A DNA stretch of 64,000 nucleotides from a virus (taxonomy: Duplodnaviria > Caudoviricetes), in the IMG/VR virus record IMGVR_UViG_3300034062_005626; one strand, 5' to 3'. Under the pieces are notes generated by a model. That model made no database searches. It was not told where the DNA came from and saw nothing but the letters and a program-made list of their open reading frames with translations. A program made the translations under genes and the position numbers. How positions within the stretch are numbered: the first letter of the stretch is position 1; each line of letters opens with the position of its first letter. Below, piece after piece: positions 4,919-59,159 of the stretch.

Positions 4919-5526
4919 TGTTGAAGATACGTCATCAGAACTCCACCTATTGCGGTTGCGTGATTTTGTAAATGGTTAATTGATTCAATGTCCAATCTGG
5001 TTTTTCTTTTGGTAAAGTCGACAGAGAGAACCCCAATGAATTTTTCTTCTATTGTTTTAATGGCAAATAAATAAGAAGATTTACAGTTAGATTCCTCAGC
5101 AACATATTTTAAACCAAACGTTGCGATTTTCTCATCTTTAAAATCAGGAACTTCAATTACGTTATTATTGTAAAGTTCGTTAATTGATTTTGAAAAAAGA
5201 TTTACAGGTATGTTTTTAAAATTTGTTTGGACGGAATTTGTATTGGGTCCAACAGTTTCATAAACTATTGAAAACTTAGCCATAGACCTACCTGTTGGAT
5301 AAAAATTACCTCCGTTATGGAATTGTGAAACCCATACTCTATCGGCACCAAATTCTTCTTTTATATGTTCTATTTTTTGATTTACAAGTTCACTAACTCG
5401 TAATGTGTCCATAACCATATCAGGTTTTGTCTTTTGTTTATCCAAAAGATGTTTGATATATAAAAGTAATATGGGACCCAATACCCCCGATATGAAGGCA
5501 ATAATTAATTGATAAATTCCGTCCAT
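4915..5526 (-). CDS. single-TM protein with GAF-like domain, T4 holin T-like
   Basis: N-terminal TM helix then ADRVWVSQFHNGG...FIGVLSVDF GAF-like fold; architecture resembles T4 gpT. Confidence 0.55.
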   Translation of the reverse strand: MDGIYQLIIAFISGVLGPILLLYIKHLLDKQKTKPDMVMDTLRVSELVNQKIEHIKEEFGADRVWVSQFHNGGNFYPTGRSMAKFSIVYETVGPNTNSVQTNFKNIPVNLFSKSINELYNNNVIEVPDFKDEKIATFGLKYVAEESNCKSSYLFAIKTIEEKFIGVLSVDFTKRKTRLDIESINHLQNHATAIGGVLMTYLQQ

Positions 5527-5554
5527 TTTAATGAATTGAAAAATTTAGAAAAAA

Positions 5555-5728
5555 TTATGATTTGTTTTTCTCTATTATGGACCAAATAGTACCTGCTAAT
5601 GTTATAATACCACCAATGATTTCTGTTGCGGTAGATTCGTCAATTAAACCTTTAGTAATTAATATACCACCAATAAAAGTAAGTCCGTGTCTGACAATTC
5701 CTAAAATTTGTTCTTTCGTAAGTTTCAT
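5555..5728 (-). CDS. small 2-TM holin-like protein (57 aa)
   Basis: Manual translation: MKLTKEQILGIVRHGLTFIGGILITKGLIDESTATEIIGGIITLAGTIWSIIEKNKS. Confidence 0.65.
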   Translation of the reverse strand: MKLTKEQILGIVRHGLTFIGGILITKGLIDESTATEIIGGIITLAGTIWSIIEKNKS

Positions 5729-5783
5729 TTTTAAATTCTTGAACGTTTATTTATTTTAATAAATATAATAAACATCATAAAAA

Positions 5784-5870
5784 TTACGCTTTGTGTTTAA
5801 AGTATTTGTAAATTATAAAAACAATAAGTAGACACGGGGTCGATGCTGCGATGATTTCGGTAATAGACAT
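5784..5870 (-). CDS. 28 aa membrane peptide
   Basis: MSITEIIAASTPCLLIVFIIYKYFKHKA. Confidence 0.35.
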   Translation of the reverse strand: MSITEIIAASTPCLLIVFIIYKYFKHKA

Positions 5871-5960
5871 AATTTTTTATTTATATATATGTAAAACAAT
5901 ATTAATGGTGGTTACAAGAGTTGTCAAAACTTTCATAACCATTCTTTTTTTTAGCATTTG

Positions 5961-6037
5961 TGGTGGTCCCACCTGGGTTCGAACCAGAGACCTACGGTTT
6001 ATGAGACCGTTGCTCTAACCTGCTGAGCTATAAGACC
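5961..6037 (-). tRNA. tRNA-CAT (Met or Ile2), CCA encoded
   Basis: GGTCTTA/TGGGACC acceptor, ACGGT-CTCATAA-ACCGT anticodon arm, GGTTCGAACCC T arm, 3' ACCA. Confidence 0.93.
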
Positions 6038-6044
6038 AAAATAA

Positions 6045-6224
6045 TTATAATAGGTTTTTGAAAAACTGTGTCCATTTTTCAGTTGCGGGACCCAATAAAA
6101 TAACTGAACCCAAACAATAAATTATGGTCATCCAAGAAAATTCATTTTTAAAAAATAAATAAGTACACACAACACCAATGATGGTCATAAAAAGACCCAA
6201 AAAGGTAAAAAGATATTTTTTCAT
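6045..6224 (-). CDS. 59 aa 2-TM membrane protein
   Basis: MKKYLFTFLGLFMTIIGVVCTYLFFKNEFSWMTIIYCLGSVILLGPATEKWTQFFKNLL. Confidence 0.55.
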   Translation of the reverse strand: MKKYLFTFLGLFMTIIGVVCTYLFFKNEFSWMTIIYCLGSVILLGPATEKWTQFFKNLL

Positions 6225-6241
6225 ATATAATAATTTTTTTG

Positions 6242-6313
6242 CGGTCCATGCGAGAATCGAACTCGCGGCTCATCCGTGACAGGGATGAATGTTAGCCACT
6301 ACACCAATGGACC
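6242..6313 (-). tRNA. trnD: tRNA-Asp(GTC)
   Basis: GGTCCAT/ATGGACC acceptor, CATCC-CTGTCAC-GGATG anticodon arm. Confidence 0.93.
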
Positions 6314-6318
6314 TGTTT

Positions 6319-6588
6319 TTACAACTTTTGGACTTGTTCCATAACTTCTGTAACTTCTTCAGGATTTAAATAACCAATCACATCACTTGTAACAGAAGTT
6401 TCATATGTTAGATTACCTTCTTTGTCTAAAACTGCAATTTCGAACAAACCATCTTTTCCACCATATGAATATGTGTGAGACACAACACTAACTCCAAATC
6501 CGTTTTCAAACATCATTCGAGAACGAACACCTGACATATATGGTTCATCAGACAATTTATCAAATTCTAAATCTTCAAATTTTTTCAT
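6319..6588 (-). CDS. conserved hypothetical phage protein
   Basis: 89 aa with F.NG.GVSVV...SYGG..GLFEIAVL motif. Confidence 0.8.
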   Translation of the reverse strand: MKKFEDLEFDKLSDEPYMSGVRSRMMFENGFGVSVVSHTYSYGGKDGLFEIAVLDKEGNLTYETSVTSDVIGYLNPEEVTEVMEQVQKL

Positions 6589-6605
6589 AACTTTTAATTT
6601 TTTTG

Positions 6606-6724
6606 TAGTCAGGACAGGATTTGAACCTGTACCCTATGATTTGTACTTCATCATAGGAGCTTATGCTATTTTTATACAGTGGTGTCGCCCCACAGCAGCG
6701 TCTAACCAATTCCGCCACCTGACT
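6606..6724 (-). ncRNA. tRNA-like RNA with large non-canonical insert replacing the anticodon/variable region
   Basis: AGTCAGG/CCTGACT acceptor, GCG-GAATTGGTTAGA-CGC D arm, ACAGG-TTCAAAT-CCTGT T arm; centre has GTGG/CCAC and CCTATGAT/ATCATAGG hairpins and no 7-nt anticodon loop. Confidence 0.8.
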
Positions 6725-6775
6725 ATTTAATTTATCTCTTAGTGGATAAAAGCCTATCACAAAGGATTAGGTTTG

Positions 6776-6847
6776 TAGCCCATCCCGGTAACGCTCCGAG
6801 ATTTGTTGGATGAAAACCAACTGTCCTTACTTTTAGACGAATGGGCC
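6776..6847 (-). tRNA. trnE: tRNA-Glu(TTC)
   Basis: GTTGG-TTTTCAT-CCAAC anticodon arm; atypical T loop AGCGTTA. Confidence 0.85.
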
Positions 6848-6919
6848 GTAAATGAGGGTAGACGCGGGCTTAGCTAGCCGTCTTTCAGGAAAAGCCCTTT
6901 TTCATATTCTACCCCTTTG

Positions 6920-6986
6920 TAGTCAGGACAGGATTCGAACCTGCAATCTTCATTTACGATGCGTACTCCAATAACGCCACCTGACT
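6920..6986 (-). ncRNA. short tRNA-like RNA with collapsed anticodon domain
   Basis: Same AGTCAGG/CCTGACT acceptor and near-identical T arm as 6606-6724; only 16 nt (ATCGTAAATGAAGATT) between D and T arms. Confidence 0.75.
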
Positions 6987-7062
6987 ATGTCCTCGTCTTT
7001 CCGAGATGTCAATACGGATATTTTGTGTACAATTCAGGACTCTCGTATTGCTTCCTTAGTTG

Positions 7063-7136
7063 TAGTTAATACTGGACTCGAACCAATGACCTATTCCGTA
7101 TCAGGGAATCGCTCTAACCAACTGAGCTAATTAACT
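7063..7136 (-). tRNA. trnI: tRNA-Ile(GAT)
   Basis: AGTTAAT/ATTAACT acceptor, TTCC-CTGATAC-GGAA anticodon arm. Confidence 0.9.
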
Positions 7137-7280
7137 ATGTTTGTATTTAAAAGAATTTTGGTCAACCACTCGCATCCCACCAATCTATTGTATCAAACTT
7201 TCTGTAGTCTAAACGATTAAATCTCCTACTACTCATTTTCAACTCACTTGCCTAAGCCTTGTCCGTTGTAAATTCTTTTG

Positions 7281-7355
7281 TGGTATGGGAATGGAATCGA
7301 ACCATCGGCACAAGAGTTTTCGGGCTCTTTGCTCTACCTACTGAGCTACCACACC
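7281..7355 (-). tRNA. tRNA-Phe-like with 8-nt anticodon loop (CCCGAAAA)
   Basis: GGTGTGG/CCATACC acceptor, canonical D and T arms, AAGAG-CCCGAAAA-CTCTT. Confidence 0.8.
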
Positions 7356-7462
7356 AATTATTTGTAATTAGTAGTTGATACACACTCTCGTTTCACCATC
7401 TTGTATCAACAGGTTAATGCACTTTACGAGTTTCCCTTTTCTTACAATCACAATATCTTAAA

Positions 7463-7521
7463 TCAAAGAACTTTTTTCTATTGTTGTGGGGGTGAGACCA
7501 CCATCACATTTTCTCACCCCC
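7463..7521 (-). promoter_or_regulatory. hairpin plus boxA-like GTTCTTTGA leader of the tRNA operon
   Basis: GGGGGTGAGA...TCTCACCCCC hairpin followed by GTTCTTTGATT. Confidence 0.6.
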
Positions 7522-7532
7522 GTTGTTTGTTA

Positions 7533-7567
7533 TACAAATATATGTAGTTTATTTTGATTTACCAAAT
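7533..7567 (-). promoter_or_regulatory. Bacteroidota-type promoter (TTTG...TATATTTG) driving the tRNA cluster
   Basis: Minus strand GATTTGGTAAATCAAAATAAAACTACATATATTTGTATAAC matches the -33 TTTG / -7 TAnnTTTG consensus. Confidence 0.7.
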
Positions 7568-7589
7568 CTTTTTTAAACTTTTTTTAAAA

Positions 7590-7622
7590 TAAAAAACCCA
7601 CCTTTTTTTGAAGATGGGTTTC
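7590..7622 (-). terminator. intrinsic terminator
   Basis: AAAAAACCCACC...GATGGGTTTT stem with A/T tracts. Confidence 0.65.
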
Positions 7623-7644
7623 TAAAATATTTTAGATTGTAATA

Positions 7645-7962
7645 TTACATTCTTGAACCTAATCTACTTTCTAAGTCTCTTAATTCATCTCTTTTTGATG
7701 TATAAGTTCCAAAAGTGTCATCTTCATCGTGTGCACCATAACCTTTTTTAAGTCTTGCCATAATTGAACTTGCAACTTCATTTGGTTTTTCAACAATAAA
7801 CTTAGCTAATGTAATCATTTCGTCATTTCCTTTTTCAGAAAATTCAAAAGTTGCGAATATATCATCAAGAATGCTATTGATTTCTCTTCTATCGTTTTTG
7901 TCTTCTTTGATTACACGTCTAACAATACGTGATAAATCTCTTTCAGTTAATCTATTTCTCAT
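7645..7962 (-). CDS. leader-family protein (RLTERDL...RVIKE)
   Basis: Conserved N-terminal leader; TATTTATA motif upstream. Confidence 0.8.
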   Translation of the reverse strand: MRNRLTERDLSRIVRRVIKEDKNDRREINSILDDIFATFEFSEKGNDEMITLAKFIVEKPNEVASSIMARLKKGYGAHDEDDTFGTYTSKRDELRDLESRLGSRM

Positions 7963-8002
7963 AATAATATTTTTATTATAAATATATCATTAGTTGAAAA
8001 AA

Positions 8003-8546: not shown

Positions 8547-8587
8547 TTTTTTGGTTTAATTTTTATGTGTATATTTGTAGAAATAAT
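8547..8587 (+). promoter_or_regulatory. 41-bp promoter block, copy 1
   Basis: TTTTTTGGTTTAATTTTTATGTGTATATTTGTAGAAATAAT, identical to 10070-10110; contains TTTG and TATATTTG. Confidence 0.8.
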
Positions 8588-8596
8588 ACAATCAAC

Positions 8597-9109
8597 ATGA
8601 AGATACTTTTAATAACATTCTTATTTATATTCTCGTTTTCTTTTGGTCAAAAGGTAAATGAACTTATTATTAAAAAAATTAATTTATATCGAAAACAAAA
8701 TGGTATTCCTGAATTAGTATATGAATCTAAAGCCAAATTGGCCAACGACCAAATGTTAAACTATATGATTGAGACATCTACATTACCTATGGACCATTCT
8801 CAAAGAATTGTATCTTCTTTTCCAACAACATTTGAAACATTCATAGATAGAATAACATATTTGTATGGGTACAACTACACATATATTGGGGAAAACCTTT
8901 GTAGTTTTAGAGATTTGAAGACGGATGAAGAAAGAGCGAATGAAGTGTTAGAGTTATGGAAAAATTCTCCTAAACATAATGCGTTGATGTTAAACCCAAA
9001 ATACAACGGATTTTGTGTTGGTAGTAAAACTTCAGATAAGATTATTATAGATGGGGTTACTTATGATAATGGTCAGATTTTTTATTGTGTTTTAACGGTA
9101 TATAAATAA
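8597..9109 (+). CDS. secreted CAP/SCP-domain protein
   Basis: Signal peptide MKILLITFLFIFSFSFG; INLYRKQNG, GENL and SPKHNALML CAP motifs. Start moved from 8567, which overlaps the promoter. Confidence 0.8.
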   Translation: MKILLITFLFIFSFSFGQKVNELIIKKINLYRKQNGIPELVYESKAKLANDQMLNYMIETSTLPMDHSQRIVSSFPTTFETFIDRITYLYGYNYTYIGENLCSFRDLKTDEERANEVLELWKNSPKHNALMLNPKYNGFCVGSKTSDKIIIDGVTYDNGQIFYCVLTVYK

Positions 9110-57566: not shown

Positions 57567-59159
57567 TTAAGATAAACCTATTTTTTGTAAAGGCATATAC
57601 TTTGGTGACCCGTTTACACTTATACCGTTACATGTTGATGGGGTTATAGTTACATTTGTTATTGTTACTGTATCTAAAATATAACCTTCAAGTTGACAAC
57701 CGTTAAATTCTATACTTGGAGTATTAATAAACTGAGTAATAGTACCGTTTATAATTCCTCCTGATGAAATACTTGCAGTGTATGTATTTGTAAATGAACT
57801 ATAATTTATATTAGATAAATTACAAGAAGGTCTAGTTTGTGAACTAGTAGTAACCACAGAGTTTGTTGGAGTACTTAAAGTTGCATTACCTGATGTTGTT
57901 GCAGTTATAGAATTTGTAATAACAGGTACGTTTGTTACGAAAGTTTTTCCTGTAAATCCAACGGCAGTATTAATTGTAAAGTTTACTGTTTTTCCTGCCG
58001 GTAATGTTGGTGTAACGTTTATTTGATAATACCAAGTTTTGGTAGTTGTAGTACCAACATTAGTTTGATTTGCCAACGGAGTTAAACTTAAATTAAGTGT
58101 ATAGTTTGTATAAGAATTTTGTGGTGTAAGTGTTACTGACTGAGTTGTTACTGTGTTATTAGTATCTTTTATATAAATTGTATAATTACCAGCAGCCAAA
58201 CCTAAAAATGTATTTGACATTTGATAATTAACTCCATTGATAGAATACGTGTAAGATGGAACTCCTCCATAACCCGTGACATTAATCACACCGTTAGATG
58301 TGTTAGAACAAGTTGGTTGTGTTGTTGAAACTGATAAAGTTAATGGCGGTGTTGTACAAACTCCTGTTGATACAAATACAGTACCTTGATATGTTCCAAG
58401 TAAAGACCAATTACCTGTAGGTGGCGTTGTTGGTTGTAATAAAGCGGGAACGCCAGGATTAGTCCATCCGCTAACTTCCCATCTTGTATTTCCTGTACTA
58501 TAGAATACCGTATAAGTTGAACTTGTCCAAGACGGGTAACCATTGATTGTTGAACCGCTGGTTAAAGTAGTTAAATACGTTGTATTAAAAGAAGGTGTAT
58601 ATTCAAAACATAAGTTTTGTGGGTATACAGGTGCTGGTGTCGGTGGAGGTAAACAATCTGAACAAGTGTCAAATGGCCCTGTAGATATTACTGCAAAATT
58701 ATTAATATAACTTTGTCCTGTATATAATGTTTGACCACTATGAGTCCAACAACCAACTTGACTTGTTAAACTGTACACTTTACCATCAACGAATTTTGAA
58801 GGTAAATCTGCAACATAATAAACAAAAGTTCCTGAATTTTCACAGTCTTCAAACTGTTCTAAATAGAAACTATCATAATCAACTGAACAAGTTGTTTGAC
58901 CTGTAAAATCACCATAATAATCTATAACTGTTGCAGTATAATTACCAGGTAGTAAATTAGTAAGTAAAGAACCTTGAGCCCCGTTACTCCAATTTATAGT
59001 ATAAGGTGGAGTTCCTCCTGTTACGTATAAGGTTATTAGACCATTAGTTGAATCAGGTGTTGACGCATTAATACTATCACAATCTAAACCTAATGGTAGA
59101 AGTGTTATTATATTACAACTATTTCCACTTAATAAACCCATCTTACCAAGTTGCCCCAC
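57567..59159 (-). CDS. T-rich virion/adhesin protein with SprB-like repeats
   Basis: VTGGTPPYTINWSNG, GGVPSYTYSING motifs. Confidence 0.7.
   Translation of the reverse strand: MGQLGKMGLLSGNSCNIITLLPLGLDCDSINASTPDSTNGLITLYVTGGTPPYTINWSNGAQGSLLTNLLPGNYTATVIDYYGDFTGQTTCSVDYDSFYLEQFEDCENSGTFVYYVADLPSKFVDGKVYSLTSQVGCWTHSGQTLYTGQSYINNFAVISTGPFDTCSDCLPPPTPAPVYPQNLCFEYTPSFNTTYLTTLTSGSTINGYPSWTSSTYTVFYSTGNTRWEVSGWTNPGVPALLQPTTPPTGNWSLLGTYQGTVFVSTGVCTTPPLTLSVSTTQPTCSNTSNGVINVTGYGGVPSYTYSINGVNYQMSNTFLGLAAGNYTIYIKDTNNTVTTQSVTLTPQNSYTNYTLNLSLTPLANQTNVGTTTTKTWYYQINVTPTLPAGKTVNFTINTAVGFTGKTFVTNVPVITNSITATTSGNATLSTPTNSVVTTSSQTRPSCNLSNINYSSFTNTYTASISSGGIINGTITQFINTPSIEFNGCQLEGYILDTVTITNVTITPSTCNGISVNGSPKYMPLQKIGLS

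What the first reader, a model, noticed from the sequence alone, without database searches (positions are those of the whole stretch)
6606..6986. Twin tRNA scaffolds with identical acceptor stem but swapped, non-decoding central domains
Seen: two genes in the tRNA operon share AGTCAGG/CCTGACT, a class II-like D arm and a near-identical T arm. One carries a ~67-nt insert with two hairpins; the other has only 16 nt. Neither has a 5-bp stem with a 7-nt anticodon loop. Arms are intact while only the centre varies, which is not the pattern of random decay. Inference: a family of tRNA-shaped carriers processed by RNase P/Z that could display cargo RNA, decoy anticodon nucleases or other tRNA-sensing defences, sequester a synthetase, or serve as recombination cassettes.
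Basis: partly seen in the sequence, partly recalled or inferred. Interest (0 to 1): 0.72.

Follow-up and report, generated by a model that had tools for sequence, protein, structure and literature searches.

The report
Phage tRNA-shaped RNAs carrying swappable cargo
Two genes in this phage's tRNA operon keep the acceptor, D and T arms of a leucine tRNA but carry an unrelated folded RNA module in place of the anticodon arm; they belong to a large, apparently undescribed phage family in which the frame stays constant, the module is swapped, and the function is unknown.

Summary
On the minus strand, element A (6724-6606, 118 nt plus discriminator) and element B (6986-6920, 66 nt plus discriminator) share the acceptor stem AGTCAGG/CCTGACT, a tRNA-Leu-type D arm and a near-identical T arm. 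Their centres are 67 nt and 16 nt, and neither contains an anticodon arm.

They are not a local oddity. The same frame occurs 464 times (407 distinct sequences) in 258 fetched phage loci, at 2-12 co-oriented copies per phage record, mostly inside tRNA clusters. The centres fall into about 210 unrelated types. Both the A type and the B type recur in other phages. The long hairpin of A shows compensatory changes at 5 of its 8 pairs.

The elements have the same 5' and 3' flank signals as the ordinary tRNAs beside them. Related phages hold different centres at one syntenic slot, and the exchange points lie inside the arms. The spliced-intron and pseudogene readings fail comparative tests. No centre matches Rfam.

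Best reading: a tRNA-derived frame matured by the tRNA pathway that carries exchangeable structured RNA modules.

The scan has noted look-alike families on other DNA before (unchecked notes). I found no paper describing this family.

The parts
6606..6724 (-). Element A: tRNA-Leu-shaped RNA gene, 118 nt plus discriminator A (6606), with a 67-nt structured centre instead of an anticodon arm
   Evidence: Sequence. Four homologues of the whole element lie in other phage contigs.
6718..6724 (-). A, acceptor 5' strand AGTCAGG (pairs with 6607-6613)
   Evidence: 7 pairs, 97% of cells paired in 5 homologues
6698..6715 (-). A, Leu-type (class II) D arm with U8, A14, A15, G18, G19 in place
   Evidence: The same D arm occurs in genuine tRNA-Leu genes of other loci.
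6631..6697 (-). A, cargo: a 5-bp stem in the anticodon-stem position (6696-6692 with 6669-6665) closing a 22-nt loop with the invariant GGGGCGAYACCAC, then an 8-bp hairpin (6657-6650 with 6640-6633) with a 9-nt loop holding invariant GUAC
   Evidence: Alignment A3. In one search the 8-bp hairpin has 5 of 8 pairs changed on both sides, is 100% paired, and 0 of 500 shuffles reach the observed score.
6607..6630 (-). A, T arm (ACAGG-TTCAAAT-CCTGT) and acceptor 3' strand CCTGACT
6920..6986 (-). Element B: minimal tRNA-shaped RNA gene, 66 nt plus discriminator A (6920), with the anticodon and variable arms replaced by 16 nt
   Evidence: Rfam tRNA 41.8 bits with the anticodon arm deleted; same type in five other contigs
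6961..6977 (-). B, D arm GCGT-TATTGGAGT-ACGC (U13, U14: departs from the Leu consensus at A14)
6945..6960 (-). B, 16-nt centre with mini-hairpin TCG-TAAA-TGA; extended to a longer hairpin in L319
6921..6944 (-). B, T arm (GCAGG-TTCGAAT-CCTGT) and acceptor 3' strand CCTGACT
6775..6847 (-). Ordinary tRNA-Glu(UUC) between B and A; shows that the elements are interleaved with decoding tRNAs
   Evidence: 42.2 bits
7535..7567 (-). Bacteroidota-type promoter motif (TTTG ... TATATTTG) at the head of the cluster; likely start of the operon that contains B and A
   Evidence: It is the only such motif on this strand between 5800 and 8100, directly after a terminator-like hairpin at 7623-7592. This is a consensus match only.
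6319..6588 (-). 89-aa ORF starting 17 nt after element A; conserved in 64 phage contigs, no known family
   Evidence: It was used as the synteny anchor.

Best explanation
A and B are two members, of different cargo types, of a large family of phage-encoded RNAs descended from a phage leucine tRNA.

Proposed mechanism:
1. They are transcribed within the tRNA operon.
2. They carry the same 5' (U at -1) and 3' (N73-C-A-A) contexts as the decoding tRNAs beside them. They are therefore most likely cut out by RNase P and the host 3'-end pathway and given a CCA end.
3. The acceptor stem, D arm and T arm form a constant, stable, correctly folded frame (the tRNA top half plus elbow).
4. The anticodon/variable region, and in some members the D loop, is replaced by a lineage-specific folded module. 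The RNA therefore cannot decode.
5. The module is itself under selection.
6. Modules are exchanged between phages by recombination inside the constant arms.
7. The likely role is to accumulate small structured RNAs during infection that bind a host or phage factor. Most members also keep what bacterial leucyl-tRNA synthetase needs, so they may be chargeable with leucine.

Shown here: the family, its architecture, covariation, conservation of both types, shared flank signals, and centre exchange at a fixed slot.

Inferred: expression, processing, CCA addition, and that the module is the effector.

Unknown: the target.
For: Family size:
- With the other searches this gives 464 occurrences, 407 distinct sequences and 258 loci. 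None of the 122 multi-copy loci has copies on both strands.
- Copies number 2-12 per phage record, against 0 control matches.

Non-decoding:
- Only 36 of 178 copies are called by ARAGORN, with 24 different anticodons.
- In a structure-only scan of loci not chosen on the scaffold, 19 of 20 non-canonical tRNA-shaped elements carry AGTCAGG or a variant 1-2 bases away. 4 of 61 canonical tRNAs are that close, and only 1 has AGTCAGG itself (Fisher p about 1e-13).

Selection at the RNA level:
- Acceptor and T stems show compensated variants.
- U8 is kept in 96%, A14 in 82%, a D-loop GG in 85%, A73 in 90%, and the T loop is canonical.

Cargo under selection:
- The A-type hairpin has 5 of 8 pairs with double changes.
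- A 153-nt type has a near-invariant centre in 7 contigs whose flanks are unrelated and whose arms vary more than the centre.
- The B type recurs in two other lineages.

Processing signals: scaffold elements have U at -1 in 77% and C74 in 98%; canonical tRNAs of the same loci have U at -1 in 68% and C74 in 315 of 319.

Exchange: window and L144 share both flanks and both arms but have unrelated centres.

LeuRS premise: A73 and the U8-A14, G18-U55 and G19-C56 core are the critical elements, and deleting the anticodon stem-loop costs only 2.5-fold in affinity (PMC2377443).
Against:
- No target was found. A and B centres have no antisense match in the window beyond chance. No host-MAG match was found for the A loop or the 153-nt cargo. 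No centre matches Rfam.
- No motif is shared among centres. Centre folding is only moderately better than shuffles (mean z -1.24).
- Minimal members such as B carry almost no cargo, which fits a role for the frame itself better than a display role.
- The exact-match searches were conditioned on scaffold sequence, so the apparent invariance of the arms is partly ascertainment. With the acceptor left free, about 73% are AGTCAGG.
Confidence: 0.55

Rival explanations
1. The frame is the functional part. The RNAs act as non-decoding tRNA look-alikes that occupy or divert a factor recognising the acceptor/elbow half of tRNA-Leu: leucyl-tRNA synthetase, a tRNA-targeting defence nuclease or transferase, or a modification or CCA enzyme. 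Alternatively they act as leucine acceptors kept out of translation. The centre only has to abolish decoding and stay folded.
For: - The LeuRS identity set is kept across the family: A73 in 90%, U8 in 96%, A14 in 82%, D-loop GG in 85%, canonical T loop.
- The anticodon arm is dispensable for charging (PMC2377443).
- Minimal members such as B (16-nt centre) and elements of 38-72 nt exist.
- Several copies per genome would give dosage.
Against: - The centres are mostly long (median about 53 nt) despite the expected deletion bias.
- Specific cargo types are conserved with covariation, in one case more strictly than the arms.
- B has U14, a position where the equivalent substitution cut charging efficiency about 40-fold in Aquifex.
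- No phage-encoded synthetase or L/F-transferase was found in 5 records, and the control Bacteroides genome lacks the L/F-transferase family.
Confidence: 0.2
2. They are punctuation marks: tRNA-like processing sites that free or stabilise neighbouring transcripts, especially the small ORFs scattered through the tRNA region. They also mark the boundaries of movable gene cassettes.
For: - A ends 17 nt before a conserved ORF.
- Scaffold elements are followed within 45 nt by an ORF of at least 40 aa in 35% of distinct contexts, against 17% for canonical tRNAs (odds ratio 2.7, p about 6e-11).
- Elements behave as discrete modules with unrelated flanks.
Against: - Two thirds of the elements have no ORF directly downstream. 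B is followed by an RNA leader and tRNA-Glu.
- Any ordinary tRNA would serve as punctuation, so the reading explains neither loss of the anticodon arm nor conservation of specific cargo.
- The contexts counted are not phylogenetically independent.
Confidence: 0.1
3. They are non-functional or selfish DNA: decayed tRNA-Leu pseudogenes whose arms are kept alike by gene conversion, or DNA-level recombination or homing sites with 7-bp inverted ends.
For: - tRNA regions of these phages are highly mosaic.
- The centre differs at one slot while the arms match, as recombination between repeats would give.
- Homing endonucleases are known in phage tRNA clusters, for example segB in T4.
Against: - There are compensatory changes in the acceptor, D, T and cargo stems.
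- Bases that matter only for RNA tertiary folding are conserved.
- Copies are strictly co-oriented with the tRNAs.
- The flank signals are tRNA-type.
- One cargo type is nearly invariant across unrelated contexts.
Confidence: 0.07
4. Element A is a tRNA-Leu gene with an intron that is spliced to give a normal decoding tRNA, as ARAGORN proposes when introns are allowed: tRNA-Leu(CAA) with a 45-nt intron.
For: ARAGORN with introns allowed makes this call. The D arm is Leu-type.
Against: - On the 5 homologues, the proposed anticodon stem has its closing pair broken in 4 of 5 and shows no compensatory change. The competing 8-bp hairpin is fully supported.
- The implied anticodons would be CAA, CCA, CAG, CAG and CAC, which specify three amino acids.
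- Rfam finds no group I intron, and 45 nt is far too short for one. That last point is from established knowledge.
- B and the other minimal members cannot be explained this way.
Confidence: 0.02

Closest known systems
Phage T4 species 1 RNA (rnaC), a small stable RNA of the T4 tRNA cluster (NC_000866 70908-71046)
   Same: It is encoded inside a phage tRNA cluster. It has a canonical T arm closed by a terminal helix, with large non-tRNA hairpins inside (fold; annotation). Its function is still listed only as 'small, stable RNA'.
   Different: - rnaC has no recognisable D arm. Its best Rfam match is tRNA-Sec at 17.5 bits, E 0.76, well below threshold.
- It is a single gene, not a multi-copy family with one frame and many cargoes.
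- It shares no sequence with this family. rnaD shows no tRNA-like features.
Engineered 'tRNA scaffold' for recombinant RNA expression (cargo placed in the anticodon arm; method cited in PMC3753655)
   Same: The design principle is the same: acceptor, D and T arms are kept so that the cell's tRNA machinery processes and stabilises the RNA, and the anticodon region is replaced by an arbitrary structured RNA.
   Different: It is man-made. Here the arrangement is natural, is diversified into about 200 cargo types, and sometimes also carries insertions in the D loop. Whether stabilisation is the reason has not been tested. The resemblance is of design only.
Minimalist tRNA-Leu substrates of bacterial LeuRS (PMC2377443; Larkin et al. 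2002, cited there)
   Same: They keep A73 and the D/T-loop tertiary core and lack the anticodon arm, as most family members do.
   Different: Those are laboratory constructs. Charging of the phage RNAs is untested, and B deviates at position 14.
tmRNA and bacterial Y RNAs of the YrlA type (tRNA-like domains within larger RNAs; PMC4201824)
   Same: They are non-decoding RNAs that contain a tRNA-like acceptor/T-arm module joined to another functional domain.
   Different: - tmRNA has a G3-U70 alanine identity, a tag reading frame and pseudoknots. YrlA has permuted connectivity and a Ro60-binding stem.
- Here the connectivity is that of a true tRNA, position 3-70 is U-A, and neither ARAGORN's tmRNA search nor Rfam reports either family.
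Canonical class II tRNA-Leu(UAA) of phages
   Same: - The D arm is identical to that of genuine tRNA-Leu genes in these loci, and A73 and the T arm are shared.
- A few scaffold copies (L091, L081) keep a CUUAAGU loop and a short variable arm and look close to the ancestral form.
   Different: The genuine tRNA-Leu genes in the same phages use other acceptor stems and have normal anticodon arms. A, B and nearly all scaffold copies have none.

Membership tests
Canonical tRNA (Rfam RF00005) | Anticodon arm: 5-bp stem closing a 7-nt loop with an anticodon, in the standard position | tested here: not met
   ARAGORN does not call A or B by default. Rfam scores B only with the anticodon arm deleted and does not score A. 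Family-wide, 36 of 178 copies are called, with 24 different anticodons.
Canonical tRNA (Rfam RF00005) | 7-bp acceptor stem, D arm with GG, T arm with a TTCRAnT loop, and core tertiary bases | tested here: met
   B departs at position 14 (U instead of A).
Intron-containing tRNA (spliced to a decoding tRNA) | After removal of the insert, a conserved anticodon stem and a consistent anticodon among homologues | tested here: not met
   the closing pair is broken in 4 of 5 and no pair has a double change; the implied anticodons specify three amino acids; no group I intron hit.
tmRNA | G3-U70 pair, tag-peptide reading frame, pseudoknots; detected by ARAGORN or Rfam RF00023 | tested here: not met
   No tmRNA was found in the window. 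Position 3-70 is U-A.
YrlA / bacterial Y RNA | Permuted tRNA-like module closed by a Ro60-binding stem; match to the Rfam Y RNA model | tested here: not met
   The elements have standard tRNA connectivity with 5' and 3' ends in the acceptor stem. No Y RNA family hit at E up to 10 in 5500-8000.
T4 rnaC-like stable RNA of phage tRNA clusters | Non-decoding RNA in a phage tRNA cluster, with a T arm plus terminal helix enclosing non-tRNA hairpins | tested here: met
   The architecture was compared by fold. This is a likeness of kind only: there is no sequence homology, and rnaC lacks the D arm.
AGTCAGG-frame cargo family (defined here) | Acceptor AGTCAGG/CCTGACT or a compensated variant, Leu-type D arm, T arm ACAGG-TTCGAAT-CCTGT, usually A73, followed by C | tested here: met
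   A and B match exactly apart from minor T-arm differences.
AGTCAGG-frame cargo family (defined here) | Expressed and matured as a discrete small RNA with a CCA end | not testable with these tools
Only the flank signals shared with canonical tRNAs are available.
Leucine-accepting RNA (LeuRS substrate) | A73 plus the U8-A14, G18-U55 and G19-C56 tertiary core (PMC2377443) | tested here: inconclusive
   A has all of these positions. B has U14. The family keeps them in 82-96% of types. Charging itself was not tested.

The most novel reading that the evidence does not exclude
Phages run a natural, modular RNA-display system. One leucine-tRNA-derived frame is matured, and perhaps leucylated, by the host tRNA machinery. 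Hundreds of different structured RNA effectors (decoys, aptamers or anti-defence RNAs) are slotted into it and traded between phages by recombination at the constant arms. This would be an RNA counterpart of a gene-cassette array.
Probability: 0.3. Interest if true: 0.9.

Novelty: new variant of a known kind. Interest (0 to 1): 0.75.

Why it matters
Phage tRNA clusters are usually read as codon-usage or anti-defence supplements. If a sizeable share of their "genes" are non-decoding RNAs on a tRNA frame, several things follow:
- tRNA counts in phage genomes are inflated or mis-assigned. ARAGORN gives these elements arbitrary anticodons.
- A large reservoir of small structured phage RNAs with unknown targets has been overlooked.
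- Nature would have arrived at the same solution as the laboratory tRNA scaffold for making stable RNAs. That offers ready-made, evolution-tested cargo junctions.
- The fifty-year-old question of what T4's stable RNAs do gains a large comparative data set.
- Because most members keep the LeuRS identity set, they are also candidates for aminoacylated RNAs acting outside translation.

Tried and rejected
- Intron reading. Rejected by comparative pair counts and inconsistent anticodons.
- Known RNA families. Rfam at permissive thresholds, on the window region and on 20 loci, found only tRNA-model hits through the arms. No ribozyme, riboswitch, tmRNA or Y RNA was found.
- Close relatives. There are none in the GenBank phage collection. 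The window's own assembly is not held, and the nearest record, G001, lacks the region.
- Host tRNA origin. The motif occurs in no isolate genome. All 23 hits are in MAGs, mostly freshwater Bacteroidota bins, and are probably phage contigs.
- Shared cargo motif. There is no enriched k-mer across about 210 centre types. The ATGATGAAG string shared by A and the 153-nt type is not enriched.
- Antisense targets. The longest complementary matches of the A and B centres in the 64-kb window equal the shuffled expectation. The antisense of A's invariant loop and the 153-nt cargo give only chance-level matches in five candidate host MAGs.
- Phage-encoded partner enzymes. Five records hold no L/F-transferase and no class Ia synthetase, and one holds a CCA-adding-type enzyme. 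Neighbouring ORFs have no informative families.
- Bacterial Schlafen as a link. The enzyme studied cuts the anticodon arm, so it is not relevant here.
- Literature. Seven searches found no description of this family. A 2023 catalogue of phage structured RNAs mentions unspecified tRNA-like candidates only.

Full report
**What is there**

The tRNA genes of this window lie on the minus strand. Read 5' to 3' on that strand, the cluster runs as follows:
- a terminator-like hairpin (7623-7592) and a Bacteroidota-type promoter motif (TTTG ... TATATTTG, about 7567-7535)
- a conserved non-tRNA module
- a tRNA with an 8-nt anticodon loop (7355-7280)
- tRNA-Ile (7136-7062)
- a conserved spacer
- element B (6986-6920)
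- a structured leader
- tRNA-Glu (6847-6775)
- element A (6724-6606)
- an 89-aa ORF starting 17 nt later
- tRNA-Asp, a 59-aa ORF and tRNA-Met.

A and B both begin with AGTCAGGTGGCG and end with CCTGTCCTGACT followed by A-C-A-A. A has a 67-nt centre and B a 16-nt centre.

Standard ARAGORN calls neither element.

**It is a large family**

Between identical acceptor strands the elements measured 53 to 181 nt. The 5' acceptor strand and the D arm were not part of the query, yet they were almost constant, and the centres were unrelated.

After all searches I hold 464 occurrences, 407 distinct sequences, in 258 loci. Lengths run from 38 to 190 nt (median 99). In none of the 122 multi-copy loci do copies lie on both strands. 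Whole phage records carry 2 to 12 copies clustered in one region, and the reversed control pattern matches nowhere. About half of the first 143 sources searched (142 fetched loci plus the window) also hold ordinary tRNAs. Clustering the centres gives about 210 unrelated types among the first 261 distinct elements, with no shared motif.

In bacterial genomes the motif occurs only in MAGs, mostly freshwater Bacteroidota bins, and never in an isolate. So it is not a host tRNA. Three things point to jumbo phages of freshwater Bacteroidota:
- a Bacteroidota-type promoter
- a virion protein with SprB repeats
- syntenic contigs of up to 324 kb.

**Guarding against ascertainment**

The first search fixed the 3' strand, so I repeated it with only the D and T arms fixed. 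About 73% of the 85 distinct elements had AGTCAGG/CCTGACT. The rest had fully compensated alternative acceptor stems and also lacked an anticodon arm.

I then ran a structure-only scan for any tRNA-shaped element in loci fetched through a neighbouring protein, which were not chosen on the scaffold. Of 20 non-canonical elements, 19 carried AGTCAGG or a variant one or two bases away. Of 61 canonical tRNAs, only 1 carried AGTCAGG itself and 4 were within two bases (Fisher p about 1e-13). The one AGTCAGG case is itself a scaffold element that ARAGORN forces into a call. The non-decoding architecture is therefore a property of this scaffold lineage.

**Origin**

The D arm is the one found in genuine tRNA-Leu genes of the same loci. 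Those genes use other acceptor stems and have normal CUUAAAA or CUUAGGA loops. A few scaffold copies (L091, L081) still have a CUUAAGU loop and a short variable arm. The frame thus descends from a phage class II tRNA-Leu, probably UAA.

**Selection acts on the RNA**

- Compensated changes occur in the acceptor stem (TGTCAGA/TCTGACA, AGTCAAG/CTTGACT, AGTCCTG/CAGGACT) and in the T stem.
- Across centre types, U8 is kept in 96%, A14 in 82%, A15 in 81%, a D-loop GG in 85%, a canonical T loop in most, and A73 in 90%. These bases matter only for the folded RNA.
- The flanks are those of the ordinary tRNAs in the same loci. Scaffold elements have U at -1 in 77% and C after the discriminator in 98%. 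Canonical tRNAs have U at -1 in 68% and C in 315 of 319, most often as CAA.

I infer that the elements are matured by the same enzymes as the tRNAs. This is an inference from sequence context, not a measurement.

**A and B are each conserved types**

A's centre has four homologues in other phage contigs. On that alignment a 5-bp stem sits where the anticodon stem would be. It closes a 19-24-nt loop (22 nt in A) with the invariant string GGGGCGAYACCAC. An 8-bp hairpin sits where a class II variable arm would be. Five of its eight pairs change on both sides, every cell is paired, and its loop keeps GUAC. None of 500 shuffles reaches the observed score, and slid controls collapse.

B's unusual D arm and a related centre recur in two other lineages. 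One has a single A-to-G change, and one extends the mini-hairpin to a longer stem. The flanks differ in part.

A third type, 153 nt long, has a nearly invariant centre of about 100 nt in seven contigs. Their flanks are unrelated on both sides, and their arms vary more than the centre does. In that type at least, the cargo is the most constrained part, and the element behaves as a discrete module.

**Exchange of the centre**

In relatives whose 89-aa ORF is 84-91% identical, the slot just upstream of the ORF again holds a scaffold element, but with a different centre of 54, 75, 105, 111 or 120 nt. Window and L144 match through both flanks and both arms and differ only in the centre, so the exchange points lie inside the arms. 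In other relatives the slot holds tRNA-Glu, tRNA-Asp, tRNA-Met or coding sequence. The region is highly mosaic.

**Rivals**

- Intron. The model proposed by ARAGORN fails. Its anticodon stem loses the closing pair in four of five homologues and has no compensatory change. The implied anticodons specify three amino acids.
- Pseudogene or selfish DNA. This is contradicted by covariation, conserved tertiary bases, strict co-orientation and conserved cargo.
- Frame only (decoy, synthetase sink or leucine acceptor). This stays open. Bacterial LeuRS needs A73 and the D/T-loop core, and tolerates loss of the anticodon stem-loop with a 2.5-fold loss in affinity (PMC2377443). Minimal members such as B fit it. 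Against it, B has U14, long conserved cargoes are not explained, no phage synthetase or L/F-transferase was found, and the control Bacteroides genome lacks that transferase family.
- Punctuation. There is a real association: 35% of scaffold contexts against 17% of tRNA contexts are followed by an ORF. This does not explain the loss of decoding or the cargo.

**What I could not find**

I found no target. The A and B centres have no antisense match in the window beyond chance. There is no signal in five candidate host MAGs, no Rfam family in any centre, and no informative neighbouring protein.

**Comparison with what is known**

The nearest classical precedent is T4 species 1 RNA (rnaC), which I fetched and folded. 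It has a canonical T arm and a terminal helix enclosing two large hairpins. It has no D arm and only a sub-threshold Rfam match (tRNA-Sec, 17.5 bits, E 0.76), and it is a single gene. By design the elements resemble the engineered tRNA scaffold used to express recombinant RNA, and they resemble minimalist tRNA-Leu substrates. tmRNA and YrlA-type Y RNAs share the idea of a tRNA-like module joined to another domain, but their defining features are absent here.

Seven literature searches found no description of this family. A 2023 catalogue of phage structured RNAs mentions unspecified tRNA-like candidates.

Earlier notes of this scan describe look-alike elements on other genomes: Leu-tRNA-shaped phage RNAs with cargo, a family in phages of Bacillota, and AGTCAGG/CCTGACT twins sharing the 153-nt cargo. 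These are unchecked AI notes. I reached them after my own analysis and do not count them as evidence.

**Verdict**

The proposed functions remain untested.
- I am about 85% confident that these are real, non-decoding, tRNA-derived RNA genes.
- I am about 55% confident in the fuller reading that the frame serves to mature and stabilise exchangeable functional cargo.

Noticed in passing
window 7280-7355 (-): A tRNA with a normal cloverleaf but an 8-nt anticodon loop (CCCGAAAA). ARAGORN reads a 4-base anticodon 'cgaa', and the Rfam tRNA score is 37.6 bits. It could be a quadruplet or frameshift-type decoder, or another non-standard tRNA.
   Followed up: no
window about 7371-7436 (-): A conserved non-tRNA module at the head of the cluster, with nested stems CTCGT/ACGAG and GTTGATAC/GTATCAAC. 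The same module precedes the tRNA clusters in L155, L177, L179 and L160 (alignment A2). It is probably another small RNA or a leader element.
   Followed up: partly
window 6848-6919 (-): A structured leader directly upstream of tRNA-Glu, with outer stem GGGGTAGA/TCTACCC and inner stem GGGCTT/AAGCCC around CCTGAAAGACGG. It is conserved before tRNA-Glu-like genes in L153, L169, L202, L177 and L179.
   Followed up: partly
window 6987-7061 (-): A spacer upstream of B holding TTGACA followed by the hairpin TCTCG-GAAAGA-CGAG. It is conserved upstream of tRNA-Ile in L155, L177 and L179, and upstream of the B type in L320-L323. An earlier scan note (e1-5322085) describes the same GAAAGA-loop motif before tRNAs in another genome.
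   Followed up: partly
all fetched phage loci; in the window, every tRNA of the cluster: Ordinary tRNA genes of these phages almost always encode C after the discriminator (315 of 319) but rarely the full CCA. CAA is the commonest trailer. This suggests a lineage-specific 3'-end processing or repair signal.
   Followed up: partly
L025, L077, L114, L059, L022 (elements listed): Some family members carry a second insertion, a hairpin of 20-60 nt, inside the D loop between GGAA and GGTAGAC. So the frame tolerates cargo at two sites.
   Followed up: no
L033, L042, L079, L096, L102, L025, L208: Several cargoes contain an extra T-arm-like hairpin (a 5-bp stem with a GTTCGAnTC-type loop). These may be remnants of recombination between tRNA genes, or a functional T-loop motif.
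   Followed up: no
window 8567-9109 (+) and 57567-59159 (-): One ORF has a CAP (cysteine-rich secretory protein) domain. It is one of the few ORFs of this length on the plus strand in the first 16 kb. A virion-region protein has SprB repeats, which fits a Bacteroidota host.
   Followed up: no
L150, L152, L153, L160 upstream of tRNA-Asp: Another conserved non-tRNA stretch of about 70 nt (CCAACCAAG...GGGGTGACGATCAGGAAAGACTGATA) lies between a scaffold element and tRNA-Asp. It again has a GAAAGA-loop hairpin.
   Followed up: no
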